From the IMG/VR virus record IMGVR_UViG_3300024239_000352, positions 1 to 55,633 of that record: a DNA stretch of 55,633 nucleotides; one strand, written 5' to 3'. A program made the position numbers and the translations under genes. The notes beneath the pieces are model-generated. The model was not told the DNA's origin. It did no database searches and saw only the letters and a list, made by a program, of their open reading frames with translations. This document shows, piece after piece, positions 8,217-45,750 of the stretch. Every line of letters begins with the position of its first letter. Within the stretch, counting starts at the first letter, position 1. Source of the DNA: a virus (lineage: Duplodnaviria; Caudoviricetes).

Positions 8217-8258
8217 CTGATTGAACAATGACCCCATTTCCATGTTAAAATGGGAATT

Positions 8259-18475: not shown

Positions 18476-19138
18476 ATGCCCTCCAACTCAAATAAAGTTG
18501 AGCTTATAGGAATTTATGGATCAGACGACATTCATGCCATGTCAGCCTGGACATCCACTTCACGTGATCTAACTAACGACAAGAAGAATAGAATTCCTTC
18601 TTTATTAAAGATGTTAGCTGAAAATGGACATGAAACACCATTTGAGAAATCTTCTTTACATTTTCTTGTGACGTCTGATATCAGCTCACACATCCATTTG
18701 ATTAAACACAGAATTGGTGTTTCTGTCAATGCTGAATCTGCGAGATACAAGGAGCTGAAGGATGACAAGTATTACGTCCCATGTGACTGGGATGATGAAG
18801 AAATGCAGGAATACACTCAGCATATGGAAGAAAGCCTTAAAAGATATCACACGGTGTTAAATCGATTGGTAGCCAAAGGCTTTTCAAGAAAAAGGGCAAA
18901 AGAGTCAGCCAGGCTATATCTTCCATACGGAAATCAACTAACAGCTGACGTCATGTTTAATTTTAGAAGTTTTTATCATTTCTTAAAATTAAGATATTCT
19001 GAGCATGCTCAGCTTGAAATTAGAAATATAGCAAGAGACATGCTATATTTGGTGCATGAGACAGGCAAATTTTCTCACACTCTGTCTGCTTTTAACCTTG
19101 TCATAAATGATCGACCTAGGCAACCTTTTGATTCTTGA
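18476..19138 (+). CDS. thyX: Flavin-dependent thymidylate synthase (near-canonical copy)
   Basis: GHETPFE; KHR..SVNAESARY; ESARLYLP; NFRSFYHFLKLR..HAQLEIR. Confidence 0.92.
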   Translation: MPSNSNKVELIGIYGSDDIHAMSAWTSTSRDLTNDKKNRIPSLLKMLAENGHETPFEKSSLHFLVTSDISSHIHLIKHRIGVSVNAESARYKELKDDKYYVPCDWDDEEMQEYTQHMEESLKRYHTVLNRLVAKGFSRKRAKESARLYLPYGNQLTADVMFNFRSFYHFLKLRYSEHAQLEIRNIARDMLYLVHETGKFSHTLSAFNLVINDRPRQPFDS

Positions 19139-19147
19139 TGTGAGTAG

Positions 19148-19753
19148 ATGTCAATGGCGAAGTTCATAGTAATTGAAGGACCTGATAGAGTCGGTAAAGC
19201 TACGCAGTGCAAGCTTCTTCATGATTATTTTACAAAATCAGGACTAAAATCAAAGGTAATCGAGGTGCCTGTTCATGACAATTTTACATACAACGTAATT
19301 TATTGGATGCTTGGAAATGGTTTAGCAAAAAAATTCCCAAAGATATTTCAGGTTACGCAGCATTGTAATAGGCACTTATTCCAATGGCAAAGTCTAAAAA
19401 AGCTAGATCATGATTATGATTATCTGATAATGGATAGGTGGAGTCTATCAACTGTCATCTATGGTGCAGCCAGCGGCGTGAATACAAATTTTACTGAAAA
19501 TCTATATAGGATGTTACGTGAGCCTGATCATACGATTGTGCTGTTAGGCAAAGCACACCAGCATGTTGCTGAAGACGTCTATGAAAAAGACACAGAGCTG
19601 CAACTAAAAGTAAAAGAGTTGTATCGTCAATGGGCAGAATCCCGACCAGGAAAAACCACGATTATAGATTGCAATGATTCACGTGAAAAGATTTTTGACA
19701 ACATAATTGATTGTCTTTTAGATGTTGATGTTATTGAAATGAGGAAAATATGA
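19148..19753 (+). CDS. tmk: Thymidylate kinase
   Basis: IVIEGPDRVGKAT; IMDRWSLS; adjacent to thyX. Confidence 0.85.
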   Translation: MSMAKFIVIEGPDRVGKATQCKLLHDYFTKSGLKSKVIEVPVHDNFTYNVIYWMLGNGLAKKFPKIFQVTQHCNRHLFQWQSLKKLDHDYDYLIMDRWSLSTVIYGAASGVNTNFTENLYRMLREPDHTIVLLGKAHQHVAEDVYEKDTELQLKVKELYRQWAESRPGKTTIIDCNDSREKIFDNIIDCLLDVDVIEMRKI

Positions 19754-33847: not shown

Positions 33848-34844
33848 AGGTTTAGACGTCGGTACATCATTCATCGTTCTTGCATCTGAGGGTTCAAAGG
33901 GCAAGGTGGTCTACAAGGACTTCCGGGACGCATTCTACGTCCTCAAGCCAACAACACCGATCGCCGCCAAGATGATCGAAAAGGGTTTGGCTGGCAAGAC
34001 ATTTGTCAAGGACACTGATGGTTCATTCATCCTCCTCGGCTCCGACGCAATCGAAAAGGCCGTGGAGAGAAACGACTCGGCGAAGCGTCCAATGTACCGT
34101 GGTGTCGTATCATCCAAGGAAAAGGATGCCCGTCGCATTTTGACATACATCCTCAAGGAGGTCGCAGCCTCACCCTCCGAGCCCGGTGAAAAGCTAGTCT
34201 TCTGCGTCCCTGCTCAACCAATCGATCAAGAAGACGACGATTTCGACGTTGGTTACCATGAGGACGTCATCGTCAAGCTCCTCGCCGAGGTCGGTTACGA
34301 TGCTCGTGCCATCAACGAGGCCGAGGCGCTTTGCTACTCTGAACTCGACAAGGATGACTACACAGGTGTCTGCCTCTCATGGGGCGCAGGTATGGTCAAC
34401 GTCTGCGTCATGCTCAACGGTGAACCTGTGGTCAAGTTCTCCACCACAAAGTCCGGTGATTGGGTCGATCGTATGTCCGCAGTCGCGACAGGTGAGACAG
34501 ATTCAATTGTCCAGGCCGAAAAAGAGTCAGGAGAGTTCACCGTCGGTCAACCCAACGATAACCAGGTCCTCGCCGCTGTGGCAGCCTATTATGAACGTCT
34601 TATCGACTACACTACGAAGCAACTTGCAGCGGCGATGGACGGCCACAAGTCACTTCCAAAATTCAAGGGTGATCTTCCAGTCGTGGTTGCAGGTGGTACA
34701 TCCAAGGCCAAGGGATTCGTCGACATGTTTGCTTCAAAGTTGAAGGACAATGGCTTCCCACTTCCTGTCAAAGAGGTACGCCACGCAGCAGATCCCCTAC
34801 ATGCCGTTGCTCGTGGATGTTTAATCGCAGCCCAGGTGATGTAA
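33840..34844 (+). CDS. Actin-like ATPase, volactin-like
   Basis: GLDVGT (phosphate 1); RPM; VPAQP; INEAEA (connect 1); SWGAGMVN (phosphate 2); VAGGTS (adenosine); DPLHAVARG (connect 2). Confidence 0.85.
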   Translation: MAKGLDVGTSFIVLASEGSKGKVVYKDFRDAFYVLKPTTPIAAKMIEKGLAGKTFVKDTDGSFILLGSDAIEKAVERNDSAKRPMYRGVVSSKEKDARRILTYILKEVAASPSEPGEKLVFCVPAQPIDQEDDDFDVGYHEDVIVKLLAEVGYDARAINEAEALCYSELDKDDYTGVCLSWGAGMVNVCVMLNGEPVVKFSTTKSGDWVDRMSAVATGETDSIVQAEKESGEFTVGQPNDNQVLAAVAAYYERLIDYTTKQLAAAMDGHKSLPKFKGDLPVVVAGGTSKAKGFVDMFASKLKDNGFPLPVKEVRHAADPLHAVARGCLIAAQVM

Positions 34845-34873
34845 AAATTAAAGATTAGGAGTACAATAGCAAC

Positions 34874-35239
34874 ATGGATAAGCTTGAAGAGATGTACAAT
34901 CAGCAGCGGGACTTCAACATTCTGCTTCGTGACGAGAGACAGTATCCAGATTTTCCACTGGATCTTTCTCTGAAAAAGAACCAGCAGATCCTCAAGGGAC
35001 TCGCCCACGAATGCATGCATGAGCTCTTTGAGGCAAATCACCTGCTAAAGAACAGTAAGAACCACCGCGTCACAGACATCAAAGATTTCGATCGTGAATC
35101 CTACAAGGAAGAGCTCGTCGACGCCCTACACTACTTCTTCGGCATTGTAATTTATAGCGGAATTTCGGCCGAAGAACTTCATGAGGCTTTCATGAAGAAA
35201 GGCGCAATCAACGTTCAGCGTGTAAAGAATGGATATTAA
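34874..35239 (+). CDS. All-alpha NTP pyrophosphatase (dimeric dUTPase/MazG-like)
   Basis: HELFEA..K.H; KEELVDALHY; K..IN..R...GY. Confidence 0.8.
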   Translation: MDKLEEMYNQQRDFNILLRDERQYPDFPLDLSLKKNQQILKGLAHECMHELFEANHLLKNSKNHRVTDIKDFDRESYKEELVDALHYFFGIVIYSGISAEELHEAFMKKGAINVQRVKNGY

Positions 35240-35255
35240 ATGTTAGGATAAGAAC

Positions 35256-36203
35256 ATGACAAAGCCTATCGATTGGGCGAATCTGCCTGACGCATTGAAG
35301 CGTCAGGCAGATTTTTCATCCCTATTTTTTGACAACAGCAAGATTAGCCTAGAACAGAAGAAAGAGCTTCTGAAGACTTTCATTCTGTCTTTACATTCAG
35401 AGACGACAGGAATCTGTGAGGCTATCGACTATAAAGAGCATAGGCTTCAGAATAAGCCTGTTGATGTTCAGAAAATTCTTTATAAATCGGTTGATGCATA
35501 TCGCTATATTTTAGCGATGTTGAATCTCTGGGGTATTAGCGCTTCAACATTTGAGATGGCGTTGGCCCAGAAGGACGATTTTCTTCACTATCGATATAGA
35601 CTTTCTCAAAAGAGGTGGGAAGGGCAGCCCGTCGTACTGTTTGACATGGATGATGTCCTTGCTGAATTTAGGAAATCGTTCTGCGGGTATGTCACCGCGT
35701 TGACAGATCACTTCATCGATCCCGAAAGCGATGAGTACTACAACGTTAGGGAGTTCAAGAGACTAAACATCAATAGCGAAAATTTCTTCAAGAAATTCAT
35801 CGACGGACACGGATTTCTGTTGCTTGAAAGGAACGACCAGTACTTTAATTTACTTCAGCATTTAAAGTCCCAGGGCTACTGGATTCAGATTGTGACGGCC
35901 CGCCCTGAAACAAATCTGACGTGCTTTTATGACACTTACTCCTGGCTGGCCCGCCACGGTGTCGATGCCGATGGCGTTGCATTCACACCTGAAAAATTCG
36001 TCTGGTTGTCTGAACAGCCTTTTTACGCAAGGGGCAGGTACTTTGCTGTAGATGATTCAGCGAAGCATGCTGCCGAGTATGCCAAACACGGCGTCGTCAC
36101 GATTGTGCCTGAAAAACCTTATAACAAAGAGGTTAACGGGGTAAACAACGTTGTGTATGTTCCGCGGAACGCGAATCCTGTAGAATTCATTCCAGTTTTA
36201 TAA
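35256..36203 (+). CDS. Degenerate dNTP-PPase-like domain fused to a HAD 5'-nucleotidase-like domain
   Basis: N-terminal ILYKSVDAYRY replaces EELVD; C-terminal FDMDDVL, IVTAR, K, VDDS HAD motifs. Confidence 0.75.
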   Translation: MTKPIDWANLPDALKRQADFSSLFFDNSKISLEQKKELLKTFILSLHSETTGICEAIDYKEHRLQNKPVDVQKILYKSVDAYRYILAMLNLWGISASTFEMALAQKDDFLHYRYRLSQKRWEGQPVVLFDMDDVLAEFRKSFCGYVTALTDHFIDPESDEYYNVREFKRLNINSENFFKKFIDGHGFLLLERNDQYFNLLQHLKSQGYWIQIVTARPETNLTCFYDTYSWLARHGVDADGVAFTPEKFVWLSEQPFYARGRYFAVDDSAKHAAEYAKHGVVTIVPEKPYNKEVNGVNNVVYVPRNANPVEFIPVL

Positions 36204-36206
36204 TAA

Positions 36207-36236
36207 GTGTAAATTTGTTCCCAACAAGGATAAAGT
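36207..36236 (+). promoter_or_regulatory. Sigma70-like promoter for the ThyX paralogue
   Basis: GTGTAA-N18-TAAAGT, then SD GAGGT before ATG 36253. Confidence 0.5.
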
Positions 36237-36252
36237 CATTCGAGGTATCAAA

Positions 36253-37182
36253 ATGTCAACAATCAAGAACGGTTTTGGTGGAATCAAGGTAACTTTGCTG
36301 GACGCGGGCAATCCTAAGCCCTTTGAGATGTTTTGGAACTGGTATCGTGAGACATGGTACTCGTTGCGAAATCAAGAGTTTGATCCAAACGATCACAAGC
36401 ACATCGAGGCTGCGAAGGAGGTCGTCGATGGTAAGGCACTTCCTGTTCCTCAGGAAGCACTTAACTTTCAGATTCGTGTCGAGGGCTTGAGCCGTGTAGC
36501 CCTTGCTCAGTTCACTCGCGGCCGTGTTGGCTGGGCATACTGCGTCACTTCGCAGATGCCTGAGAAGGTGGACCACGACGTCATCGTTCCAATGAACATC
36601 TATGAATCTGAGTTTGGCGACGATGCTAGAAAGCTTGTCGAGGATTCGCAGCGACTCTACGACAAGATGGTGGCTGCCGGCGTTCCACCACAGGATTGTC
36701 GATACCTTCTTATTCATGGTCAGACGACGAACTTGGCATGCGTCGTCAACTTCATGGCCCTTCGTGGCTACTTTGGTCGACGATGTGAGAACGGTCTGAC
36801 CGATGAGCTCAACCTGATCGGTCGGCTTATCCTGCATGAGCTGCGGCAGGCTCACCTGAACGCTGACGGTACCGACAAGGTCCATGGATCAGGTTGGTCT
36901 TACCTGATGACGAAGCTTGAGGCGATGGGCGCCGACAAGGTCTGTCTCAACAACGACAAGGTCTTCGGCAACACGGGTCGATCGCCTTCAGCCGGCGACT
37001 GGGTTCCATCGACTGTCAACGAGAAGAATCCATGTGACTGGAGGTTCGATAAGTCAGCTTGGTTCTTTGAGCTACAGAAGCTGCCGGCACACCTGCTCTT
37101 CCCAGGAGAGAAGGAGATGATTCAGGACTGGCAGACGATTGGCTTCGATGGTCGACTTCGTAAGGTCGGAACGAAGAAGTAA
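36253..37182 (+). CDS. Divergent ThyX-fold protein (second paralogue)
   Basis: FQIRVEGLSR..QFTRGR....SQMP; GVPPQDCRYLL..TN; NFMAL..YF.RR. Signature residues are altered. Confidence 0.78.
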   Translation: MSTIKNGFGGIKVTLLDAGNPKPFEMFWNWYRETWYSLRNQEFDPNDHKHIEAAKEVVDGKALPVPQEALNFQIRVEGLSRVALAQFTRGRVGWAYCVTSQMPEKVDHDVIVPMNIYESEFGDDARKLVEDSQRLYDKMVAAGVPPQDCRYLLIHGQTTNLACVVNFMALRGYFGRRCENGLTDELNLIGRLILHELRQAHLNADGTDKVHGSGWSYLMTKLEAMGADKVCLNNDKVFGNTGRSPSAGDWVPSTVNEKNPCDWRFDKSAWFFELQKLPAHLLFPGEKEMIQDWQTIGFDGRLRKVGTKK

Positions 37183-37187
37183 AGATT

Positions 37188-37251
37188 TTTGGACGGTCTT
37201 GACTAGTTTGAATATGTATTTACATGAAAAGAAAATTCAAGACCGTCCAAA
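37188..37251 (+). promoter_or_regulatory. 15-bp perfect inverted repeat enclosing the homing-endonuclease start codon
   Basis: TTTGGACGGTCTTGA (37188-37202) and TCAAGACCGTCCAAA (37237-37251); ATG 37224 and ATATGTA/TATTTA lie in the loop. Confidence 0.75.
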
Positions 37252-38051
37252 TCACTTGTGAACAATGTGGGAAAATATCTTTAAAACAAAAAGGCCGCCG
37301 ATTTTGTAATACGTCTTGCGCGAATAAATGGTTGCATGCCCATGGCAAACTGAGCGCAAAAGCAATCATTGGAATGAATATGTCGTTGGAATCGCTGATT
37401 CAGCGATATGGAGATCTGTTAGGTCTTCAAAAATACGAAGAATTCATTAAAATAATGAGTGCTGCCACATCTGGGCAGAAAAATCCAATGTATGGTAAAA
37501 ATTACCAAACACATGGATTAAAAAAAGAGGGTGAAAAAAGAAGAGGAAAAACTGAAGTTGAACACTACGGTTTAGAGAAAGCGAAAGAAATTTCAAAGAA
37601 AAAGTCAGAAGCTTCATCTGGAAAAAACAACTCCATGTATGGTAAGCCCTCACCGAAATTATCGGGTAAAGGAACCAAAGGCTACTATAAAGGACATTAC
37701 TTTAGAAGTTTATTAGAGCTTTTGTGTATGAAACACTTAGAAGAAGATGGAATAGATCTAAATGACATCGATTATGAAAATTTTGTGATAAAATATGTTT
37801 CTTACGATGGTCGTCAAAGGACATATAGACCTGATTTTTTTATTCCAAGCAGAAATCAATTAGTTGAGGTAAAACCTTTTAGATTGATTTCTACCCCCTT
37901 GAATACACTTAAGTTCGAAGCTGCTCTTTCTTTTTGTAAAGAAAGAAACATTGAGTTTAAAGTTTTGACAGAAAAGTCTTTTACTTTATCAAAAGAAGAC
38001 GCAGTAAAAGATCAGAATGTCGTTCTTTTGGAGGCAAAAAATGAGAAATAA
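37224..38051 (+). mobile_element. Free-standing homing endonuclease (NUMOD3-like repeats plus PD-(D/E)xK nuclease)
   Basis: CEQC..FCNTSC; GQKNPMYGK and GKNNSMYGK; FRSLLE; YRPDF; VEVKP; AT-rich. Confidence 0.8.
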
Positions 38052-38587
38052 TGAGGTATTGGCCCGTCAGAAGATTATTATCTTCGACGGGCCAGATTGA
38101 AGGGTGTGGCAAAACACACATGGCAAAGGAGCTTGCCAAAATTACTAATATCGCTTACTTTAAAAATATTGACGAACACAAGTACTTTCTCAGCGATCCA
38201 AACTACTTCATCAACGCCATCAGGTATGTCGACACGTACTTCACATCTTACTTGGAGGCGTCAGGTGCGTCGATCATTCTCGATCGTGCCTGGCCTTCTG
38301 AGTGGATCTACAGCAAGGCCGTCGGTCGTTCAACAGATCTTGAGGTTCTAAAGGATCTCGATAGGCGGCATGCTCGCTTAGGAACAAAGCTGATTATTCC
38401 ATGGCGATCCGACTATACAAAGGTGAAGGATGACTACGATGTCGTCAACCAAAAAATCAATTTAATTCATGACTTGTATCACGAATTTGCAAATTCATGG
38501 ACACAATGTGATGTCTTATTGTTGAACGTAGACAACGAAGATTTGAACGAAGAAATGCAACAAATTACAGGATTTATCAACACATGA
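38041..38587 (+). CDS. Deoxynucleotide monophosphate kinase with a 4-nt interruption (TGAA) in the P-loop
   Basis: SD GGAGG at 38030; MRNNEVLARQKIIIFDGPD-TGA-A-GCGKT..; ILDRAWPSEWIYS. Confidence 0.75.
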
Positions 38588-39144
38588 ATAGAATTACAAA
38601 AGACATTGGACCGTATGTAAAGGTCACATTTAAGCGCCAATTACCCTACTCAATTCCTGGTCAATGTGTCAAGCTCGACGGAAAGTGGTTCGCAATTTAC
38701 GAAGTCAATCCAGGTGATTTTAGTATCTTGGTCAACAAGAATTCACATTATGCTGAAAATGACCCTCAGGAAATTTCAGAACCCCTGGGAGAAGGTTTTA
38801 CAGCCTCGCTGTGCAAACGTGCCATTGTCGTAGGAGGAGGCACAGGAATTGGCGCCGTCATGCCGGTCATCAAGAACAGAAATCGGCATGGTCTTTCAAC
38901 TGATGTGATTTTTTATACCCGAGGCGACATTTCTCCCATTAGGTTGGATCAGGCTACCATTGGTATGTGCAGGAATGTAATTTTCTGGGACACGACAAAA
39001 CAAGGTCGTCCTTCGACGCCGCTGGAGCCTCTTGTCGATAAGCAGGCTGAATCGACCATCTTCGTCGCAGGCCCAAAGTCACTTGTTACAGCGACTGAAG
39101 AGGCAGCTCGCAACTACAATTTTGATTGTTACACTAATTTTTGA
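38584..39144 (+). CDS. FNR-family NAD(P)H/flavin oxidoreductase
   Basis: PGQ; PLGEGF; VGGGTGI; FVAGP; terminal aromatic residue (TNF). Confidence 0.75.
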   Translation: MNRITKDIGPYVKVTFKRQLPYSIPGQCVKLDGKWFAIYEVNPGDFSILVNKNSHYAENDPQEISEPLGEGFTASLCKRAIVVGGGTGIGAVMPVIKNRNRHGLSTDVIFYTRGDISPIRLDQATIGMCRNVIFWDTTKQGRPSTPLEPLVDKQAESTIFVAGPKSLVTATEEAARNYNFDCYTNF

Positions 39145-39163
39145 AAAGTACATAAGTACTTTT
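39144..39163. promoter_or_regulatory. Palindrome, candidate operator
   Basis: AAAAGTAC-ATAA-GTACTTTT directly upstream of a small RHH-like gene. Confidence 0.5.
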
Positions 39164-39182
39164 GAACCTGAAAGAGATACAT

Positions 39183-39353
39183 ATGACCATGAAACAATCG
39201 AAGATCTCGTTAAATGAAGAGACTCATCGAATGCTGAAGGTGTACTGTGCGAAGCACGGATTATTGATGAGTCAATTCGTTTCGGAGATCATTCGAGAGA
39301 GGATTGGCTATGTGGACGACAAAAACGGTTCAGGAGATGCCGACAACCCCTAA
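39183..39353 (+). CDS. Small ribbon-helix-helix-like DNA-binding protein
   Basis: SKISLNEETHRMLKVYCAKHGLLMSQFVSEIIRE. Confidence 0.65.
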   Translation: MTMKQSKISLNEETHRMLKVYCAKHGLLMSQFVSEIIRERIGYVDDKNGSGDADNP

Positions 39354-39969
39354 ACTGATGGGGATCTATCAAATCACTAATATAGTCAACGGGAAAAGGT
39401 ATATTGGAAAAAGCAAGAATATACGTAGGCGGTGGATGGAGCACATTCGCAATAATCGAATAGGAAATTCAGTTAATAAACACTTCCAATGTGCTTGGAC
39501 CATGTATGGTGAAGATAAATTTTTATTTGAAGTTCTTGAACAAATCCAAGATGAAGCTCAGCTTGGATTGAGAGAAAAGATTCTTGTAGAAGAGAAAATG
39601 CCTGAGTATAATGTCTCTATTGTAGACGAAGGTCAATGGACTTTAACAAACGAAAAAATTGAGAAATGTCGACAAATTAGACTTAATGCTGATCCTTCTT
39701 GGAACAAGAAGATAGGTAATTCTCTTCGTGGAAAAAAGAAAAGTGACGAACATGTAAGTAAGATGCGAAAAAGTCTTACTGGAAGGAAAGCAACCCCTGA
39801 ACAGATCGAGAAAATTCGTAAGGCTTCAACAGGTCGACTTGTTTCTGAGGATGCAAAAAAGAAAATTGCAGACAAGGCAAAAGGAAATCAAAGATGGAAG
39901 CTTCGAACGCCACAGTGGCGGGAGAACATGATTGCAGGCGTCAAGAAAAGATGGGAAAGGTACAGAAAA
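39337..39969 (+). mobile_element. GIY-YIG homing endonuclease with NUMOD3-like repeats, in frame with the downstream NDT gene
   Basis: GIYQITNIVNGKRYIG..RW..H; FEVLE; YN; SDEHVSKMRKS..G repeats; no stop before 39970. Confidence 0.85.
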
Positions 39970-40446
39970 ATGAAAAATGAAAATACTTTTGGTAAAAAAC
40001 TTGCATGCTATCTCGCTAGCGGTTGGTTTTCGCCCGATCAGGACAAGCAGCTGACAAAGCTCGAAAATGTATTTGACAGTCGAGCTGAGTGGATCTCTTT
40101 GGCTTCGCCACGAAGGATCTTCGTCTGCCCACCAGACGCATCCCTGGAGGTCCAAGACAGCGTCTTCAACGGCAATGTTGAGCACATCAAGAAGGCAGAT
40201 TTCTGTCTCGTCAACACGACATATCGTGATATCGGTACGATTTGGGAGGCTGGCGCTGCATATGCCTATGGCACAAAGATCGTTTACTTCTGCGAAAATC
40301 TTCCACCTGGTGCAAAGTTCAATTTGATGCTTAGTAGAAGCGGCATCAAGGTTTGCACTACATTCGAACAGCTCGAGGACTACCTTGAAAGGTGCAAGGC
40401 TGCCGGTGAGATGTTGTACGAACCCTACGACAAGGAAATTGAGTGA
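39970..40446 (+). CDS. Nucleoside 2-deoxyribosyltransferase / nucleotide N-hydrolase (NDT/RCL/MilB-like)
   Basis: YLASGWFS; N..HI..AD; DIGTIWEAGAAYA; FNLML; own ATG at 39970. Confidence 0.82.
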   Translation: MKNENTFGKKLACYLASGWFSPDQDKQLTKLENVFDSRAEWISLASPRRIFVCPPDASLEVQDSVFNGNVEHIKKADFCLVNTTYRDIGTIWEAGAAYAYGTKIVYFCENLPPGAKFNLMLSRSGIKVCTTFEQLEDYLERCKAAGEMLYEPYDKEIE

Positions 40447-40472
40447 GCTAATTCATAGCTAAAATAACTTCG

Positions 40473-40502
40473 AAGGCCATTGTGAAAATCGATGGCCTTT
40501 TT
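40473..40502 (+). terminator. Rho-independent terminator
   Basis: AAGGCCATTG..CGATGGCCTT followed by a T run. Confidence 0.7.
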
Positions 40503-40526
40503 AGCATTTGTATATATGTATTTTTC

Positions 40527-41447
40527 ATGGACACAATAGATACACCAAAAATTGTATGCGAGATTTGCAATACTGCATTTACACACAAGAACACACAGAT
40601 AAGAACGTGCAGTAAAAAATGCAGTTATGAACTGAGAAATAAAACAAGACATCATGTAAAGCATGAACCTGTTCAAAAGAAATGTATTGAATGTCTTGAA
40701 ACCTTCCAAGACTATAGTAAAAAGAAGTTAGTGATCAAATGCCAAAATTGTGTTTATGCAAACATGGCATCAAAAAGAAAACAGAATGGAAGTTATCATC
40801 AAACAGACGAAAGAAAATTACAGCAAAGCCTGCTGATGAAACGTCTTCATCAGGAAAGAGATTTTATCTCTGATGAAGGCATACGTCAATTGTCAGAGAA
40901 AGCTAAAAGCAGGTGGCAGTCAGATGATTATAGGTCGAGTGTCAAGAAACGCAGCCTAGAGAAATATGGCGTAGAGCATTGGACGAAAACTGAAGAGGCC
41001 AGGAAACAACTCAGCGAAAGATCAAAAAAATATAGGGCCTCAGATGAAACGAAGCAGAAGATGAGGGTTAGTGCTGCTAAACGCCTACGTGAAGGTCGTA
41101 ATTTGCACCCATTCCACGGTAAGGGTGGGTACAGACAAGACATTGATCTTTACGTAAGAAGCAGATGGGAGGCTAACTTTGCGAGATATTTGCTTTTGAC
41201 GAATCAAAAATTTGAGTATGAAAAAGTGAGTTTTTCGCTTCGAGATGGAAGAACATATACACCTGATTTCAAAGTTGAAAATATGCTGTATGAAATCAAA
41301 GGATGGTGGACACAAGCTGCAAAAGAAAAATTTGAAATCTTTAAGGAAGATTATCCCGAAGCCGTCGTGCAAATAATAGACGAGGCAAGGTACAATCAGA
41401 TCCAGGATCAGTATGCTGCTTTGATTCCAAACTGGGAATATAAATGA
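40527..41447 (+). mobile_element. Free-standing homing endonuclease (zinc fingers, NUMOD3-like, PD-(D/E)xK)
   Basis: CEIC..CSKKC; CIEC..CQNC; RSRWEANFA; YTPDF; EIKG; ATGA overlap with dnaE. Confidence 0.8.
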
Positions 41448-44400
41448 CCAACATTCTTAGGCCACCTGCGCAGTTCATCAGCCTTCACTCGCACTCACAT
41501 TTCAGTACTTATGATGGGTTAGGGCAACCATCAGATCACATTGATTTTTGTGTCCAAAATGGATTGTCAGGTTGGTCTCTTACCGACCATGGCAACGGCA
41601 ACGGATTGGCCCATGCTCACGCTCACGCCAAGAAGATCATCAAGTCGAAGGGGCACAAGTTTAGGCAACTCTACGGTGTTGAGTTCTACTTCGTTCCTGA
41701 CTTGGCCGATTGGAAGATCAGGTACGACCTCTCCAAGAAAGAGGACTCGAAGAAGGGCGACGATGAAGAAGAAGCAGGCCTGGTCGTTGAGGACGCTGAT
41801 GAGACACGTTCCGACGGAGATCGATTCGTCGATGTCAACAAGCGTTACCACCTTGTGGTTGTCGCAAAGAACAGTGTAGGTCTTTCCAACCTGTTCACTC
41901 TCGTCAAGAAGAGCTACGTCGACGGTTTCTACAAGTTTCCTCGAATCGACTTCAAACTTCTCAAAGAACACGGCGAAGGCCTTGTTGTCTCGACTGCATG
42001 CGTCGGTGGCTATCCCAGCGGCGTCATCTACAGCGAGTTTGGCGACAAGAAGTTCGCCGAGCTTGATCCTTCGCTGGTCGACGACGAAGTCGTGAGGAAC
42101 AGGATCAGAAACAAGCTGGAGAACGTCGTCGATCGCTTCGTCGATTGTGTTGGACACGAAAACTTCTTCCTGGAGCTTCAGTTCAACAAGCTGCCTGCCC
42201 AGGACCTGACCAACAGGATGATGATCGAGACGGCGGCATCAACGGGTTGTAAGCTTCTTTCCACCGCAGACTCACACTATCCAGAACCTGCCCTGTGGGA
42301 GGCCAGGGAGATCTATCGGCAGCTGCAACCTGGTCGCATGAAGATTGGTGTAGAGCCTAAGCCTCTTCCTAAGTTTGAGGAGCTGAAGTGTGAGCTGTAT
42401 CCGAAGAACGCTCAGCAGATGTGGGACGAATATCTAGGCCGTCGCGAAGCCTATGATTGGTACAAAGGAACAGAAGACGCCGTCCGCACCTCCATGGAGA
42501 ATGGCCACGATATCGCCTGGAACCTTTGTGAGGAGATCTGGTTCGACACTTCGGCCAAGCTTCCTACCTTCGGAACACCTGAAAAATCAGGTTTCAAACA
42601 ACTCGTTGACCTCGTCAAGGAAGGTTTGGTCGCTGAGGGTCTCGACAAGAAGCCTGACTACGTTGCCCGTGCCAAGATGGAGTTGGACGACATCAAGTAC
42701 CTGAAGTCTGAGGACTACTTCTTGACCCTGCAGAAGGTGTTCAAGCTGGCCGAAAATCGAACGTTGCCAGGTTCAGGTCGTGGCTCAGGCGCCGGTTCGC
42801 TTGTCAACTACCTGCTAGGCATTACCCACGTCGATCCCCTCAAGTATGACCTGCTGTGGGAAAGGTTCATGGGGCGGCACAGGGTCGGATATCCCGATAT
42901 CGACACAGACGTCGGTGACCGTGACAAGCTGATCGAAGCAGCCAGAGAAATCTTCGGCAATGACGCTGTCGTCCCGGTTTCCAACTTCAATACCTTGAAG
43001 CTGAAGTCGCTCGTCAAGGACGTCTCCAAGTTTTACGGAGTTCCTTTCGATGAGGTCAACGCTGTCACAGGCCCACTCGAGCGTGAAGTGGAGCAGAAGT
43101 CGCGTGATCCCAACATGGAAAAGTCCATGTTCGTCCTGAAGCACGAGGACTGCATGGAGCACTCCGAGAACTATAGGAACTTCATGGAAAAGTATCCTCA
43201 GGTCGAAGAGAAGATCAGGACGTTATTCATGATGAACCGCTCAGTCGGCCGCCATGCCGGTGGTGTCCTGATCTGTCCTCAGCTCGAGAAGCACATGCCT
43301 CTCATCACTGTTCGAGGTGAGCTTCAGACACCATGGACCGAAGGTGTCAACATTCGAAATCTTGAGGAGAACGGATTCCTCAAGTTCGACTTCCTCGGCA
43401 TCAAGCAGATGAAGATGGTGGAGGATTGCATCGCCCGAATCCTGAAGCGCGAGCTGGGTCGTGAGCCGATCTTCGAAGAGATCAAGAAGTTCTACGATGA
43501 GAAGCTCAACTGTCGATACGTCGAACCGAACGACGACAAGGTCCTGAACCACGTCTATCGCAGCAATCGATGGCCAGGCATCTTCCAGTTCACATCTGAA
43601 GGCGCCCGGAAGTTCTGTCACGAGGTCCAGCCGACATCGATCGAGGACATCGGTGTCGTCACGGCAATCTATCGTCCAGGTCCACTCAAGGCCAACGTTC
43701 ACAAGAAATACGTCGAAGCAAAGAAGGACGCATCCAAGGCACAGTACGATCACCCGACCATCAAGGATGTCCTTGGCACGACCTACGGGTTCATTGCCTT
43801 CCAGGAGCAATTCATGATGTTGGCACAGAAGCTCGCCGGATTCTCACCAGGTGAATCCGACAAGATGCGCAAGACTCTTGTCAAGAAGGACCTGACGTCC
43901 CTTGGCAAGAAGTCCGAAGAGAAAGAGGCATTGGAAAAGAAGTTCATCGATGGCTGCATCACAGTCAGCGGCATGGAAAGGTTCAAGGCGAAGGAGCTGT
44001 TCGACAAGATCGCGTTCTTCTCGTTGTATGGTTTCAACAAGTCCCACGCAATTGCCTACGCAATCGATTCGTACTACGGCGCCTGGTTGATGACCTACTA
44101 TGAGACCGATTGGTTGGCAACATGCCTTCAGTCTGAAAATGCCAACGTTGAAGGCCTGGCATGGATGATCTCCGAGATCAAGCAACTTGGCTACAAGACG
44201 TCGACGCCTGACATCAACCACTCTACGAACGAATGGACGTGGTCCGAGAAGCTTCACGCTTTCGTCCCGCCCCTGTCTTCGCTGAAGGGAGTCGGTGAGT
44301 CAGCCGTCGAGGAGATCATTGCAAATCGTCCATACAAGTCGATCGAGGACATGTTGTGGACGCCGGATGGCGTGTGGCGCCACTCCAAGTTCAACAAGAA

Positions 44401-44965
44401 GGCCATCGATGCCCTGCTGAAGATGGAGGCCTTTGAGTCATTGAGGGATCCTGAAACGTGTATCTGGGGCAACTACAGACAGCTCCACTTTGCAATCGTT
44501 GAAAACATGGATACCATCAAAAAATCCACAAAAAAAGATCCGCTGTCTGGTCAGAAGAAATTCTTTGAATTATTGGAGTCGTCACGAGAGATGCCCGATT
44601 GGACCCGTATTGAGAAGATTGAGAATAAGATTTCTTGCTCCGGCACGATGGACATTAGCATGTGTGTTGAGTATGATATACTGCAACGTTTGCAGAACAA
44701 GGGAATTAGGTCTCTTGACGAGATTGATGGAACAGATATTTACTGGTTTGTCGTAAAGAACTCCATTCCAAAGACGACAAAGAATGGAAAGGCATACCTG
44801 CTGTTGGAGGCATTGAGTCCTTCAGGCAAGGTTTCAAAGATCTTCTGTTGGAAATGGGATGGAGAACGGCAGATTGTGCCTTACACGCTGTGTTTGGCTG
44901 AGGTTTCTAAGTCTGACTTTGGAATGTCCACTACATTTTGGAAATTGAATGAGGTTGATCAATGA
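41444..44965 (+). CDS. dnaE: DNA polymerase III alpha subunit (family C)
   Basis: PHP motifs HSHS..DG, TDHG, GVE, ADSHY; GRGSGAGS; PDIDTD; LKFDFLG; FQEQ; FNKSHA. Confidence 0.95.
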   Translation: MTNILRPPAQFISLHSHSHFSTYDGLGQPSDHIDFCVQNGLSGWSLTDHGNGNGLAHAHAHAKKIIKSKGHKFRQLYGVEFYFVPDLADWKIRYDLSKKEDSKKGDDEEEAGLVVEDADETRSDGDRFVDVNKRYHLVVVAKNSVGLSNLFTLVKKSYVDGFYKFPRIDFKLLKEHGEGLVVSTACVGGYPSGVIYSEFGDKKFAELDPSLVDDEVVRNRIRNKLENVVDRFVDCVGHENFFLELQFNKLPAQDLTNRMMIETAASTGCKLLSTADSHYPEPALWEAREIYRQLQPGRMKIGVEPKPLPKFEELKCELYPKNAQQMWDEYLGRREAYDWYKGTEDAVRTSMENGHDIAWNLCEEIWFDTSAKLPTFGTPEKSGFKQLVDLVKEGLVAEGLDKKPDYVARAKMELDDIKYLKSEDYFLTLQKVFKLAENRTLPGSGRGSGAGSLVNYLLGITHVDPLKYDLLWERFMGRHRVGYPDIDTDVGDRDKLIEAAREIFGNDAVVPVSNFNTLKLKSLVKDVSKFYGVPFDEVNAVTGPLEREVEQKSRDPNMEKSMFVLKHEDCMEHSENYRNFMEKYPQVEEKIRTLFMMNRSVGRHAGGVLICPQLEKHMPLITVRGELQTPWTEGVNIRNLEENGFLKFDFLGIKQMKMVEDCIARILKRELGREPIFEEIKKFYDEKLNCRYVEPNDDKVLNHVYRSNRWPGIFQFTSEGARKFCHEVQPTSIEDIGVVTAIYRPGPLKANVHKKYVEAKKDASKAQYDHPTIKDVLGTTYGFIAFQEQFMMLAQKLAGFSPGESDKMRKTLVKKDLTSLGKKSEEKEALEKKFIDGCITVSGMERFKAKELFDKIAFFSLYGFNKSHAIAYAIDSYYGAWLMTYYETDWLATCLQSENANVEGLAWMISEIKQLGYKTSTPDINHSTNEWTWSEKLHAFVPPLSSLKGVGESAVEEIIANRPYKSIEDMLWTPDGVWRHSKFNKKAIDALLKMEAFESLRDPETCIWGNYRQLHFAIVENMDTIKKSTKKDPLSGQKKFFELLESSREMPDWTRIEKIENKISCSGTMDISMCVEYDILQRLQNKGIRSLDEIDGTDIYWFVVKNSIPKTTKNGKAYLLLEALSPSGKVSKIFCWKWDGERQIVPYTLCLAEVSKSDFGMSTTFWKLNEVDQ

Positions 44966-45750
44966 GCAATAATTTTCCTGAGAAAATCGCCGATAGAGAA
45001 AAGTACATCTATGAACAGGTCCTAGCTGGCAATTTTGATGCCGAATGGGTGCCGTTGGAGCACACGGCCGGCGGTAGAACAATAAAGTTCAATGTAATGA
45101 AGGACGCGCTGAAGATTGATGGTGTCAGGGTCAACGTTTCAGCCGAGCTGCAACAAAAGCTGGCTGACGTTTTTGGTGCGTCGCTTTTGACAGCACACAT
45201 CGCCGACTTGATGTTCATCAACGCCGTTCACAGGATTGAACCGTGTCCGATGCAGATTTCTTCGACAGTGGCGTCGATGGTAAAGCACAGCCAAATGGTC
45301 GACACGAAGGTAGGCCAGAATCCAACAGGGCTTGTTGCTTCTCCTGGAAAACACTGGATTCTCGATAAGAAGCTAGATTACAATACTTCTAAATCTTGCA
45401 ACTACGGTTGGCATTTCGTAGGAACAAATTACAAAGGAATTAAAGGACACCCTGCCGCTTCAAAGCAGAACAAGTTGAACGGTGCACCCATATCGGTGAT
45501 TCAGCCAAACGCTTGTGCTCACGACATGAAACATTCTGATTATTCGCAGATCTGTCAGTTAGTTTCACAGATCTGCTGGATTGATGGTGTTGAATACAGG
45601 CTGTCTAACATTTTACAAGATCCTTCCAGATGTGACCTCGTCACCGCAGGCGGACCTTTAATTTACGTTAGACAACCAGGAACTATGCCTATTGTTGGTA
45701 CATCTGTGTTATTTCCTGTTAAGATTACTTCCAATAAAGGAATTGTGTGA
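44962..45750 (+). CDS. Hypothetical protein
   Basis: 262-aa ORF; NYGWH..IQP..H..DYSQ motif. Confidence 0.7.
   Translation: MSNNFPEKIADREKYIYEQVLAGNFDAEWVPLEHTAGGRTIKFNVMKDALKIDGVRVNVSAELQQKLADVFGASLLTAHIADLMFINAVHRIEPCPMQISSTVASMVKHSQMVDTKVGQNPTGLVASPGKHWILDKKLDYNTSKSCNYGWHFVGTNYKGIKGHPAASKQNKLNGAPISVIQPNACAHDMKHSDYSQICQLVSQICWIDGVEYRLSNILQDPSRCDLVTAGGPLIYVRQPGTMPIVGTSVLFPVKITSNKGIV

What the first reader, a model, noticed from the sequence alone, without database searches (positions are those of the whole stretch)
34874..44965. Candidate novel DNA-base-modification operon built on a rewired ThyX paralogue, directly upstream of dnaE
Seen: contiguous genes for an all-alpha dNTP pyrophosphatase, an inactive-looking copy fused to a HAD phosphatase, a ThyX-fold protein, a dNMP kinase, an FNR-type reductase and an NDT/N-hydrolase, followed by the replicative polymerase. 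A complete ordinary dTTP route exists elsewhere in the window (thyX, tmk, dut, tdk, dCMP deaminase), so this set is redundant unless it handles a different nucleotide. Established: T4 (hmC) and SPO1 (hmU) use this logic (destroy the canonical dNTP, modify the dNMP, phosphorylate it with a dedicated kinase), but with ThyA-fold enzymes. Inference: a flavin/ThyX-based route to a non-canonical pyrimidine, possibly a cytosine derivative because T synthesis is retained.
Basis: partly seen in the sequence, partly recalled or inferred. Interest (0 to 1): 0.9.

Follow-up and report, generated by a model that had tools for sequence, protein, structure and literature searches.

The report
Rewired second ThyX nucleotide module
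An uncultured giant freshwater phage carries, beside its normal thymidylate genes and just before its DNA polymerase, a widely conserved set of nucleotide enzymes built round a rewired second ThyX and its own kinase, which probably makes an unusual pyrimidine for the phage DNA, although no chemistry has been measured.

Summary
Window 34874-44965 encodes, on one strand: a small MazG/dimeric-dUTPase-type pyrophosphatase; a degenerate copy of it fused to an NT5C (HAD) 5'-deoxynucleotidase; a 309-aa ThyX-fold protein (ThyX2); a TMPK/dNK-fold kinase (KIN2); an FNR/Fre-like reductase; a nucleoside deoxyribosyltransferase (NDT); then DnaE. A canonical dut, thyX-tmk, tdk and dCMP deaminase lie elsewhere in the window.

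ThyX2 is a phage-only family. KIN2 follows it in 54 of 61 non-redundant loci, including unrelated T4-like phages. ThyX2 co-occurs with a canonical ThyX in 4 of 5 long records. It keeps the dNMP-phosphate and R174-type residues. It has lost H53, the RHR histidine and R90/Y91, and E144 is now Gln. The FNR-like gene is accessory (11 of 25 loci).

Best reading (0.55): a pre-replicative route to a C5-modified pyrimidine dNTP on a ThyX scaffold. The base (dUMP or dCMP) and the group added (hydroxymethyl, methyl or hydroxyl) are unresolved.

This scan has already reported the same family on other DNA several times. I found no description in print.

The parts
34874..35239 (+). g1: 121-aa all-alpha NTP pyrophosphatase (MazG / dimeric dUTPase-dCTPase type)
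   Evidence: Pfam dUTPase_2 1.1e-6. PHROG 12184 'nucleotide pyrophosphohydrolase' 5e-13. Acidic E..E and EE..D motifs are visible in the translation. A MazG-family gene lies within 4 kb of ThyX2 in 15 of 25 loci that have at least 3 kb on both sides.
35256..36203 (+). g2: degenerate g1-like N-domain fused to an NT5C (HAD) 5'(3')-deoxyribonucleotidase
   Evidence: Pfam NT5C, residues 125-296. PHROG 2643 5'-3' deoxyribonucleotidase. The N-terminal domain is 25% identical to g1, E 2e-4. The HAD DxDxV motif and the later DD motif are seen in the translation.
36253..37182 (+). g3: ThyX2, a rewired ThyX-fold protein with a C-terminal extension of about 100 aa
   Evidence: Pfam Thy1 66.3 bits, but TIGR02170 41.8 against a cut-off of 87.9. 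AF2 pLDDT 91; Foldseek to T. maritima and M. tuberculosis ThyX with probability 1.0 and about 15% identity. Residue map from A1/A2.
37224..38051 (+). g4: free-standing homing-endonuclease-like gene (TnsA-N/NUMOD3); a mobile insert, not part of the pathway
   Evidence: Pfam. Present between ThyX2 and KIN2 only in the window, L007, L012 and L026. A contig of run X5 joins 37186 to 38026 without it.
38041..38587 (+). g5: KIN2, a TMPK/dNK-fold kinase. The reading frame changes after 38099 at a 4-nt stop-containing insert inside the Walker A motif.
   Evidence: frames and relatives. (identical in contigs of X2-X4; no gap in X5). (fold of the intact relative L025). KIN2 lies within 2.6 kb downstream of ThyX2 in 54 of 61 loci.
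38584..39144 (+). g6: compact FNR/Fre/PyrK-like NAD(P)H:flavin reductase; accessory
   Evidence: NCBIfam PRK06222 2.9e-7 and LuxG 3e-3, all below cut-off. Atlas structure TM 0.79-0.85 to PyrK/SudB/FNR proteins. GGTGIGA motif and C-terminal N-Y/F in A3. Found in 11 of 25 loci by BLAST clustering, plus an FNR-like protein after KIN2 in L089.
39162..39353 (+). g7: 63-aa RHH-like protein that travels with the GIY-YIG element
   Evidence: Weak Pfam 56B_RHH 0.0056. Found again only in L004 and weakly in L011.
39304..40446 (+). g8: in-frame fusion of a GIY-YIG endonuclease (residues 19-102) and a nucleoside 2-deoxyribosyltransferase (residues about 232-380; DNA 39997-40446)
   Evidence: Pfam. The NDT half matches PDB 6evs N-deoxyribosyltransferase at 2e-11, with the GT.WE.G catalytic Glu kept. 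NDT stands alone (145-190 aa) in most relatives and is fused (381-393 aa) in L004, L025 and L028. NDT lies within 4 kb of ThyX2 in 19 of 25 loci.
40482..41447 (+). g9: second free-standing endonuclease-like gene (endonuclease I-like); a mobile insert
   Evidence: Pfam, weak. Homologues lie before DnaE in L008, L011, L012 and L050. A contig of X5 joins 40460 to 41474 without it.
41444..44965 (+). DnaE-type replicative polymerase, 1173 aa, uninterrupted here
   Evidence: ORF. tblastn to phage DnaE genes at 25-30% identity. Follows the module in clade A relatives.
18476..19753 (+). Canonical ThyX1 (18476-19138) and tmk (19148-19753): the parallel synthase-kinase pair
   Evidence: Pfam Thy1 125.9 bits and Thymidylate_kin 50.9 bits. 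ThyX1 aligns to T. maritima ThyX with H53, (K)HR, E-S-x-R-Y, R147 and R174 in place.

Best explanation
The region is a conserved nucleotide-pool module of uncultured phages. Its core is a two-gene unit, ThyX2 plus its own kinase KIN2, which parallels the ordinary ThyX1 plus Tmk pair in the same genome.

Proposed pathway:
1. ThyX2 binds a pyrimidine deoxynucleoside monophosphate. dUMP is somewhat more likely and dCMP is possible. It modifies C5 using its flavin, by one of two routes: a one-carbon transfer that ends as hydroxymethyl or methyl, or an O2-dependent hydroxylation.
2. KIN2 phosphorylates the product, a host NDP kinase finishes it, and the adjacent DnaE incorporates it.
3. The small MazG/dimeric-dUTPase-type pyrophosphatase and the MazG'-NT5C nucleotidase pull the competing canonical nucleotide down to the monophosphate and nucleoside level.
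4. The NDT recycles the deoxyribose.
5. Where present, the Fre/FNR-like protein supplies reduced flavin to a ThyX2 that has lost the residues canonical ThyX uses for NADPH and folate.

Shown: gene content, fold, residue changes, conservation and co-occurrence.
Inferred: substrate, product, the roles of the helper enzymes, and incorporation into DNA.
For: (1) Family. 149 relatives at E<=1e-3, 44-93% identical among the 120 listed, most about 308 aa, with none named beyond 'hypothetical' or 'ThyX'. 24 cluster representatives at E<=1e-30 among 1.84 billion. No relative in 185,579 species genomes by pattern scan. No match above 37% identity in 50,697 phage records.

(2) ThyX fold: AF2 pLDDT 91; Foldseek probability 1.0 to TM0449 and Mtb ThyX.

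(3) Residues.
- Kept: S80-R81, Q86 (=Q75), R89 and R91 (=R78, R80), S100 (=S88), R150 (=R147), N166, R177 (=R174) and E68.
- Changed in every one of the 26 A1 sequences: H53 to L63, E144 to Q147, R90-Y91 to M102-P103.
- The His of RHR is Gly in 25 of the 26 (Ala in one), and the Arg of N-x-R is also replaced.
- New invariant motifs appear in a C-terminal extension.
- H53 and E144 are the folate-site positions mutated in PDB 4gtf, 4kar and 4gtc-e (titles).

(4) KIN2 lies within 2.6 kb downstream of ThyX2 in 54 of 61 non-redundant loci with at least 800 nt downstream. This includes a T4-like (Gp23) clade whose other neighbours differ.

(5) A canonical ThyX is also present in 4 of 5 long records, one of them T4-like. 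ThyA is present in 0 of 5. ThyX1-tmk adjacency is seen in the window.

(6) Helper genes recur. NDT is within 4 kb in 19 of 25 loci and is also present elsewhere in the T4-like record. MazG-type genes are within 4 kb in 15 of 25. In the most distant clade a YfbR-like HD 5'-deoxynucleotidase stands where the HAD nucleotidase would be (L091, L095, L099). That is a non-homologous replacement of the same activity.

(7) The KIN2 fold is closest to SPbeta YorR, TMP kinases and deoxynucleoside kinases.

(8) Precedent. Phages use a dimeric dUTPase/dCTPase, then a TS-homologue, then a phage dNMP kinase to make 5hodCTP. The ThyA-fold 5hodCMP synthase uses a loosely bound flavin and O2 (PMC13326640, sections 24 and 28 read; bioRxiv 10.64898/2026.10.06.757002, passages).
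Against: - No chemical or signal-level evidence for a modified base. All public runs holding this DNA are kept as assembled contigs only.
- The kinase in this window, and in 3 of 59 relatives, is out of frame at the Walker A motif unless 4 nt are skipped. So the module may be dispensable or decaying here.
- The FNR-like gene is absent from 14 of 25 loci by clustering.
- No glycosyltransferase or other DNA-level tailoring gene is consistently linked. GT1/GT2 genes in G001 and G002 mostly lie over 100 kb away, and the DXD transferase is in one locus only.
- KIN2 cannot be told apart from a deoxynucleoside kinase by fold.
- NDT plus nucleotidase is also what a plain salvage route would need.
- The phage keeps a full dTTP route, so any replacement of T could only be partial.
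Confidence: 0.55

Rival explanations
1. Ordinary auxiliary nucleotide supply and pool cleaning. ThyX2 is a second, divergent thymidylate synthase (for another reductant, folate form or condition) and KIN2 a second TMP kinase. The pyrophosphatase, nucleotidase and NDT only sanitise and salvage dNTP precursors for a large genome.
For: ThyX2 still scores over the Pfam Thy1 threshold and keeps the phosphate-binding and R174-type residues. In the most distant clade it sits beside a dUTPase and a dCMP deaminase, the normal dUMP suppliers (dcd within two genes in 5 of 7 such loci). The window is rich in ordinary nucleotide genes. Relatives also carry Fpg/Nei and Nth-like glycosylases, and the window a superoxide dismutase, which fits damage control.
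Against: A canonical ThyX with its own tmk is retained next to ThyX2 in 4 of 5 long records from two unrelated phage types. The catalytic and folate-site residues H53, R90, Y91 and E144 are replaced in all 26 A1 sequences, and the RHR His in all 26 (Gly in 25, Ala in one). ThyX2 fails the NCBIfam thyX equivalog cut-off, 41.8 against 87.9.
Confidence: 0.15
2. A salvage and transglycosylation route. The nucleotidase makes deoxynucleosides, the NDT swaps the base (possibly for a free unusual base), and KIN2 acts as a deoxynucleoside kinase. ThyX2 works on the resulting monophosphate, so the kinase acts before ThyX2, not after.
For: The NDT half is closest to a true nucleoside deoxyribosyltransferase (6evs, 2e-11) with its catalytic Glu. 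The KIN2 profile and fold match deoxynucleoside kinases and NDUFA10 as well as TMP kinases. NDT co-occurs with ThyX2 in 5 of 5 long records. A nucleotidase activity is kept by two unrelated folds.
Against: The tightest linkage is ThyX2-KIN2, not NDT-KIN2. KIN2 carries the D-R motif of TMP kinases. The phage has its own tdk. In T4-like phages NDT lies about 60 kb from ThyX2.
Confidence: 0.12
3. In this particular phage the module is a decaying remnant invaded by mobile endonucleases. The kinase is a pseudogene and the cluster no longer works as a unit.
For: Three endonuclease genes are inserted in 7 kb. The kinase Walker A motif is interrupted by a stop-containing 4-nt insert that is reproduced in contigs of four runs from two studies.
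Against: Downstream of the insert the kinase frame stays open for 162 codons and is 58-68% identical to intact relatives. The same kind of insert at the same codon occurs in two other lineages, and skipping it restores exactly the motif of the nearest intact relatives. ThyX2 is 93% identical to its nearest relative and keeps every invariant residue.
Confidence: 0.1
4. The product is not a DNA precursor but a nucleotide-derived small molecule, such as an antimetabolite or signal, as with the ThyX paralogue PolB in polyoxin synthesis or the MilA/MilB pair.
For: The only described neofunctionalised ThyX paralogue works in nucleoside-antibiotic synthesis (PMC5954106 passage). An NDT-family enzyme next to a TS-like enzyme recalls MilA/MilB (MilA is mentioned in PMC13326640 section 24; MilB is recalled).
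Against: The family is restricted to phages. It is placed directly before the replicative polymerase in clades A and D. It has a dedicated kinase that carries the product towards the triphosphate.
Confidence: 0.05

Closest known systems
Canonical flavin-dependent thymidylate synthase ThyX/FDTS (T. maritima TM0449, M. tuberculosis ThyX; PF02511)
   Same: Same fold (Foldseek probability 1.0, TM by target up to 0.76). Same dNMP-phosphate residues (R78, R80, S88, R147 equivalents), R174 and Q75 equivalents.
   Different: About 15% identity. The PDB profile search reaches ThyX only at E about 1e-3. H53, H79, R90, Y91 and the N-x-R arginine are replaced and E144 is Gln. A conserved C-terminal extension of about 100 aa is present. 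ThyX2 coexists with a canonical ThyX and is always paired with its own kinase.
PolB, the ThyX paralogue of polyoxin biosynthesis (UMP/dUMP C5-methylase)
   Same: A neofunctionalised ThyX paralogue that coexists with a housekeeping ThyX (PMC5954106 passage).
   Different: PolB is bacterial, works in a secondary-metabolite cluster and still methylates with folate. ThyX2 is phage-only and sits with replication genes.
T4 (gp56 dCTPase, gp42 dCMP hydroxymethylase, gp1 dNMP kinase) and SPO1-type hmU pathways
   Same: The same logic: pyrophosphatase of the dimeric dUTPase/dCTPase kind, TS-like enzyme, dedicated kinase, dCMP deaminase, and (in SPO1-type phages, recalled) a dTMP nucleotidase.
   Different: Those use ThyA-fold enzymes. 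Here ThyA is absent (0 of 5 records) and the enzyme has the ThyX fold. An NDT and a flavin reductase have no counterpart. dTTP synthesis is kept.
5-hydroxy-dCMP synthase pathway (RB69 gp48, DLP3 gp80, HY126 AfhB) leading to arabinosylated 5-hydroxycytosine
   Same: A thymidylate-synthase-type scaffold using a flavin and O2 instead of folate chemistry, followed by a phage dNMP kinase (PMC13326640, section 24). ThyX2 has lost folate-site residues and in some phages has a flavin reductase beside it.
   Different: Those enzymes have the ThyA fold with a D169N signature. That paper does not mention ThyX (0 occurrences). None of its arabinose-5-phosphate isomerase, kinase or uridylyltransferase genes turned up among the window ORFs that I scanned.

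Membership tests
ThyX / FDTS thymidylate synthase (EC 2.1.1.148) | ThyX fold and a Pfam Thy1 score above the gathering threshold | tested here: met
   66.3 bits against 24.8. Foldseek probability 1.0 to 1o26, 3hzg and others.
ThyX / FDTS thymidylate synthase (EC 2.1.1.148) | NCBIfam TIGR02170 thyX equivalog cut-off | tested here: not met
   41.8 bits against a cut-off of 87.9.
ThyX / FDTS thymidylate synthase (EC 2.1.1.148) | ThyX motif R-H-R-x7-8-S-x-R-Y | tested here: not met
   It reads R-G-R ... S-Q-M-P. M and P are invariant in 26 of 26 family members, and the middle residue is Gly in 25 of 26 (Ala in P0047). ThyX1 of the same window has K-H-R ... S-A-R-Y.
ThyX / FDTS thymidylate synthase (EC 2.1.1.148) | His53 and Glu144 of the folate/NADPH site (T. 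maritima numbering) | tested here: not met
   H53 becomes L63 and E144 becomes Q147, both invariant. Their role in the folate site is taken from PDB entry titles and from recall.
ThyX / FDTS thymidylate synthase (EC 2.1.1.148) | Makes dTMP from dUMP with CH2-THF and NAD(P)H | not testable with these tools
   Needs an enzyme assay or thyA complementation.
Pre-replicative pyrimidine replacement pathway (T4 / SPO1 / RB69 kind) | dNTP pyrophosphatase of the all-alpha dUTPase/dCTPase kind encoded with the pathway | tested here: met
   g1 hits dUTPase_2 and PHROG 12184. Substrate unknown.
Pre-replicative pyrimidine replacement pathway (T4 / SPO1 / RB69 kind) | ThyA-fold synthase homologue | tested here: not met
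   PF00303 is found in 0 of 5 long records that carry ThyX2. The synthase here has the ThyX fold.
Pre-replicative pyrimidine replacement pathway (T4 / SPO1 / RB69 kind) | Dedicated nucleotide kinase linked to the synthase | tested here: met
   KIN2 is downstream in 54 of 61 loci. TMPK/dNK fold. dNMP or nucleoside specificity is not resolved, and the frame is interrupted in this window.
Pre-replicative pyrimidine replacement pathway (T4 / SPO1 / RB69 kind) | Non-canonical base present in virion DNA | not testable with these tools
   Only assembled contigs of the runs were available.
Nucleoside 2-deoxyribosyltransferase (PF05014) | Pfam score above threshold and the catalytic Glu of the GT.WE.G motif | tested here: met
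   43 bits against 28.8. Aligned to 6evs with the motif kept.
NT5C 5'(3')-deoxyribonucleotidase (HAD) | Pfam score above threshold and HAD motif I, D-x-D-x-V/T | tested here: met
   28.5 bits against 24.8. The motif is read in the translation.
FNR / Fre-type flavin reductase | Two-domain FNR fold with a glycine-rich NAD(P)H motif and a C-terminal aromatic residue | tested here: met
   Atlas structure TM 0.79-0.85 to PyrK/SudB/FNR clusters. GGTGIGA motif and terminal N-Y/F are conserved in 16 sequences.
FNR / Fre-type flavin reductase | Curated family score; R-x-Y-S flavin motif | tested here: not met
   No Pfam hit. All NCBIfam hits are far below cut-off. The motif position reads x-Y/W-F-A-I without a conserved Arg.

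The most novel reading that the evidence does not exclude
ThyX2 is a C5-hydroxylase on the ThyX scaffold. It has lost the folate/NADPH-site residues but kept the dNMP site and the flavin site. It takes reduced flavin from the neighbouring Fre-like reductase (or from a host reductase) and uses O2 to make 5-hydroxy-dUMP or 5-hydroxy-dCMP, which KIN2 and DnaE carry into DNA. That would be a second, convergent origin of the flavin/O2 hydroxypyrimidine chemistry just described for ThyA-fold enzymes of RB69-like phages. The two NDP-sugar SDR enzymes of the window and the glycosyltransferases of relatives might then decorate the hydroxyl group.
Probability: 0.17. Interest if true: 0.9.

Novelty: new variant of a known kind. 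Interest (0 to 1): 0.7.

Why it matters
All characterised phage routes to C5-modified pyrimidines start from ThyA-fold enzymes. A ThyX-fold counterpart would have several consequences.
- It would widen the enzymology of DNA hypermodification.
- It would give a marker gene pair (ThyX2 + KIN2) for predicting modified DNA in uncultured freshwater and marine phages, including giant ones.
- It could supply new nucleotide-modifying enzymes.
- It would matter for metagenomics, because modified DNA biases library preparation and long-read base-calling.
- It would matter for understanding how these phages escape restriction and CRISPR.

The family can be tested directly with the published in vivo assay: express synthase plus kinase in E. 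coli, then run LC-MS on plasmid nucleosides.

Tried and rejected
- Near-identical DNA in cultured phages: none (megablast). The kinase has no tblastn hit in 50,697 phage records. The DnaE has only 25-30% relatives.
- PDB by sequence. ThyX2 alone gives nothing at E<=0.01. With the family profile the top hits are spurious designer PPR repeats matching a 24-residue stretch, and ThyX appears only at about 1e-3. g1 gives only insignificant hits.
- hhalign of the family against the single ThyX1 sequence failed to align. I replaced it with a MAFFT alignment that includes four annotated phage ThyX proteins.
- Complex prediction with two copies of ThyX2 plus the FNR-like protein: verdict 'no answer', score 0.00, controls not run. 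This says nothing either way.
- The look-up of sequencing runs: no RNA holder listed. All 20 runs are kept as contigs, so neither expression nor base-calling anomalies could be examined.
- Promoter and terminator scan of 33800-45200: counts are at or below shuffled expectation, so there is no evidence on operon boundaries.
- DXD glycosyltransferase (PF04488): 0 of 5 long records. It is a one-locus neighbour (L095), so I rejected it as part of the module.
- The glutamine-synthetase-like gene next to ThyX2 in clade B is a GlnII-type enzyme (446 bits). I treat it as a metabolic gene, not an amide-forming tailoring enzyme.
- Literature searches for a ThyX paralogue in phage DNA modification found none. 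PMC8989533, PMC5954106 and PMC7824862 were read as passages only. PMC13326640 was read as abstract, sections 24, 27 and 28, and a term search. The two bioRxiv items were seen as passages (10.64898/2026.10.06.757002) or as a search listing only (10.1101/2022.08.31.505936). I did not ask for supplements. Supplementary figures S5 and S8 of PMC13326640 (dNMP kinase comparison, flavin spectra) could bear on the kinase and flavin comparisons.
- I could not get model coordinates, so all residue mapping rests on sequence alignment.

Full report
**What the window is.**
The window is a whole IMG/VR virus record of 55.6 kb, estimated 17% complete, so it is a fragment of a phage of roughly 300 kb. A relative reached later (G001) is 318 kb and 93% complete. 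No cultured phage is close:
- megablast finds nothing;
- ThyX2 matches ordinary phage ThyX proteins only at 25-36% identity over its core;
- the DnaE has only 25-30% relatives.

Contigs from lake, freshwater and subsurface metagenomes of 13 studies hold parts of the region.

**The observation.**
- g1 (34874-35239) belongs to the all-alpha pyrophosphatase group that includes dimeric dUTPases.
- g2 (35256-36203) is an NT5C-type HAD deoxynucleotidase. Its first 125 residues are a diverged copy of g1 (25% identity) in which part of the acidic metal motif is lost.
- g3 (36253-37182) is ThyX-like.
- g5 is a P-loop kinase.
- g6 (38584-39144) has an FNR/PyrK/Fre-like fold.
- The C-terminal half of g8 is a nucleoside deoxyribosyltransferase with its catalytic glutamate.
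- DnaE follows.

The ordinary dTTP route is also in the window: trimeric dUTPase, ThyX1 directly followed by tmk, tdk and dCMP deaminase.

- two free-standing endonuclease genes (g4, g9);
- a GIY-YIG endonuclease fused in frame to the NDT, with a small RHH gene before it;
- a break in the kinase frame.

Contigs of a run from another study join 37186 to 38026 and 40460 to 41474. Alleles without g4 and without g9 therefore exist, and these genes are mobile inserts.

**ThyX2 as a protein.**
The family alignment of 26 sequences (44-86% identical to the window protein) has 59 invariant columns. The AlphaFold model is confident (pLDDT 91) and matches solved ThyX structures with probability 1.0 at about 15% identity. 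By sequence, however, the family profile reaches PDB ThyX only at E about 1e-3, and the protein fails the NCBIfam thyX equivalog threshold.

I mapped residues in two steps: ThyX1 against T. maritima ThyX (chain index minus 12 gives the usual numbering), then ThyX1 and four annotated phage ThyX proteins against ThyX2.
- Kept: the S-R pair, Q75, R78, R80, S88, R147, N of N-x-R, R174 and E58 equivalents. These are the residues that hold the nucleotide phosphate and polarise the pyrimidine, and some flavin contacts (roles recalled from the ThyX literature).
- Replaced in every one of the 26 sequences: H53 (Leu), E144 (Gln), R90 (Met) and Y91 (Pro).
- Also replaced: the His of R-H-R (Gly in 25 of 26, Ala in one) and the Arg of N-x-R.
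- H53 and E144 are the positions mutated in the folate-complex entries listed.
- Added: about 100 residues at the C-terminus, mostly loops in the model, with an invariant D-x-V-F-G-x-T-G-R motif.

A search of 1.84 billion cluster representatives finds 24 at E<=1e-30, then a graded series of more distant ThyX-like proteins. Some of these share the extension but not the R-G-R / S-Q-M-P pattern. No relative was found in 185,579 species genomes by pattern scan, so the family appears to be phage-only.

**Conservation of the neighbourhood.**
I collected 17 IMG/VR and 80 metagenome loci, called ORFs, clustered them by BLAST and removed duplicates. Of 95 loci with a ThyX2 ORF (the window included), 75 were non-redundant.

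KIN2 lies within 2.6 kb downstream of ThyX2 in 54 of 61 loci that have at least 800 nt downstream. The seven misses are one locus with an insert (L036) and six loci of the most distant clade. In one of those six (L099) KIN2 lies upstream instead. In three others (L094, L095, L097) the gene family directly upstream of ThyX2, scanned in L095, has a dTMP-kinase-like P-loop.

Within 4 kb, among 25 loci with at least 3 kb on each side:

| Gene | Loci |
|---|---|
| NDT | 19 |
| MazG-type | 15 |
| DnaE | 12 |
| FNR-like | 11 (one more FNR-like protein follows KIN2 in L089) |

Five gene orders can be told apart:
- the window's DnaE-type giant phages;
- a clade with a GlnII-type glutamine synthetase before ThyX2;
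- a T4-like clade (Gp23 capsid) where only ThyX2-KIN2 is shared and an AdoMet decarboxylase follows;
- a clade with the order DnaE fragment, MazG'-NT5C, NDT, ThyX2, KIN2, FNR-like, epimerase, dCMP deaminase;
- a distant clade with NDT, a YfbR-like HD 5'-deoxynucleotidase, ThyX2, and then dUTPase and/or dCMP deaminase.

The HAD nucleotidase is thus replaced by an unrelated HD nucleotidase. This is the best sign that a dNMP phosphatase activity belongs functionally with ThyX2.

A canonical ThyX is present as well in 4 of 5 long records, including the T4-like one, while ThyA is present in none. NDT is found in 5 of 5 and dCMP deaminase in 4 of 5.

**What this supports.**
The symmetry ThyX1-tmk and ThyX2-KIN2 is kept in two unrelated phage lineages that each retain the canonical enzyme. 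This argues that ThyX2 makes a monophosphate that is not dTMP and needs its own kinase. The pyrophosphatase family of g1 is the one that T4-like phages use as dCTPase/dUTPase at the head of their modified-cytosine routes (bioRxiv 10.64898/2026.10.06.757002, passage). The position before the replicative polymerase fits a DNA precursor.

This is the known logic of T4, SPO1 and RB69-type phages, but with a ThyX-fold enzyme. Within the searched library I found no paper describing such an enzyme. A 2018 review names PolB as the known neofunctionalised ThyX paralogue. A jumbo-phage survey treats ThyX only as a thymidylate or modified-pyrimidine synthase in general terms.

**What stays open.**

*The base.*
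- For dUMP: the R174-type arginine is retained, and ThyX2 is next to dUTPase and dCMP deaminase in the distant clade (dcd within two genes in 5 of 7 loci).
- For dCMP: only the argument that dTTP synthesis is kept. Phages that replace thymine only partly keep a thymidylate synthase too (recalled).

*The chemistry.*
- A one-carbon transfer ending in hydroxymethyl needs no net reductant. Methylation does.
- Both folate-site positions are lost, and a Fre-like reductase is present in part of the family. A ThyA-fold enzyme of RB69 and DLP3 has recently been shown to hydroxylate dCMP with a loosely bound flavin and O2 (PMC13326640, section 24). Together these make O2-dependent C5-hydroxylation a serious alternative.
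- That paper does not mention ThyX.

*The kinase.* Its fold is closest to SPbeta YorR, TMP kinases and deoxynucleoside kinases. I cannot exclude that it acts on a nucleoside made by the nucleotidase and NDT.

*Tailoring at the DNA level.* The window has two NDP-sugar SDR enzymes (a 4,6-dehydratase/UDP-xylose-synthase-like one at 31758 and a GalE/TviC-like one at 45946). Relatives have GT1 and GT2 genes, nearly all far from the module. No glycosyltransferase is linked to it.

**The kinase break.**
- The native start (ATG 38041, behind a GGAGG) reads through the first beta-strand and G-P-D, then meets TGA. The rest of the Walker A motif and the whole enzyme continue in the +1 frame.
- Compared with intact relatives there are exactly 4 extra bases after the Asp codon.
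- Contigs of three runs from the study of the source sample are identical here. A 98%-identical contig from another study has no gap there. So this is not an assembly slip.
- The same kind of insert at the same codon (TGA plus one base) is present in 3 of 59 relatives' kinases, representing two further lineages: L026, and L012/L053.
- Skipping the 4 bases restores exactly the motif of the nearest intact relatives: G-P-D-G-C-G-K-T as in L025 and G-P-D-N-C-G-K-T as in L011. A simple +1 shift would add a residue inside the P-loop.
- In L012/L053 the Asp codon recurs 4 bases downstream. In the window and L026 the landing triplet differs in its third base.
- Three of the four interrupted genes have the g4-type endonuclease directly upstream. 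One relative (L007) has the endonuclease with an intact motif.
- This resembles, in miniature, the T4 gene 60 bypass element that travels with a homing endonuclease (search listing and abstract of bioRxiv 10.1101/2022.08.31.505936; the immunity role is recalled).

For the present finding this means the kinase of this window is either recoded or dead.

**Verdict.**
- The module is a new variant of a known kind of system, and it is widespread in uncultured phages.
- Earlier notes of this scan describe the same family on other genomes. My tests agree with them on the ThyX2-kinase pairing and the NDT association.
- One of those notes led me to the 5-hydroxycytosine paper, which I then read myself.
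- No experiment exists. The decisive test is the published in vivo assay with ThyX2 and an intact KIN2.

Noticed in passing
window 38041-38110; also L026:2470-2570, L012:11864-11960, L053:1658-1750: A 4-nt insert (TGA plus one base) sits right after the Asp codon of the kinase Walker A motif in 4 of 60 KIN2 genes from three lineages. Skipping it restores exactly the motif of the nearest intact relatives. Three of the four have the g4-type homing endonuclease directly upstream. It is reproduced in contigs of four runs from two studies. It may be a miniature analogue of the T4 gene 60 bypass / mobA cassette, or an endonuclease-immunity scar.
   Followed up: partly
window 39304-40446; L004, L025, L028: A GIY-YIG endonuclease is fused in frame to the N-terminus of the NDT (380-393 aa), whereas most relatives have a stand-alone NDT of 145-190 aa. 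An internal Met just before the NDT domain could still give the free enzyme.
   Followed up: partly
window 37187-38025 and 40461-41473: Contigs of run X5 (another study) join across both free-standing endonuclease genes, so endonuclease-free alleles of the same phage type circulate.
   Followed up: yes
window 33840-34844: An actin-fold protein just upstream of the module, with only weak hits to salactin, MamK and BeeR models (2e-8 at best). 89% identical in L003.
   Followed up: no
window 31758-32711 and 45946-46908: Two NDP-sugar SDR enzymes (dTDP-glucose dehydratase/UDP-xylose-synthase-like and GalE/TviC-like 4-epimerase). The second follows DnaE in several relatives. Their target is unknown and no glycosyltransferase lies in the window.
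   Followed up: partly
L009:7196-7993 (21 loci); L091:7848-8534: A phage Fpg/Nei-family DNA glycosylase lies just upstream of the MazG gene in clades A and B. A weak endonuclease III-like protein follows ThyX2 in L091. The window fragment itself has no Fpg/Nei.
   Followed up: partly
L068:5935-6951 and seven other loci: A GlnII-type glutamine synthetase (446 bits) lies directly upstream of ThyX2 in one clade.
   Followed up: no
L016:7711-8088 and other T4-like loci: An S-adenosylmethionine decarboxylase gene lies two genes downstream of ThyX2-KIN2 in the T4-like clade.
   Followed up: no
window 48156-48896, 30010-31092, 8250-8855: The fragment also encodes a superoxide dismutase, a GMP-reductase/IMPDH-family protein without CBS domains, and a small HD-domain protein of unknown substrate.
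   Followed up: no
L004, L008, L010, L047 (DnaE region): The DnaE gene of several relatives is split into two to four pieces by inserted ORFs of about 320-360 aa. The window's DnaE is uninterrupted.
   Followed up: no
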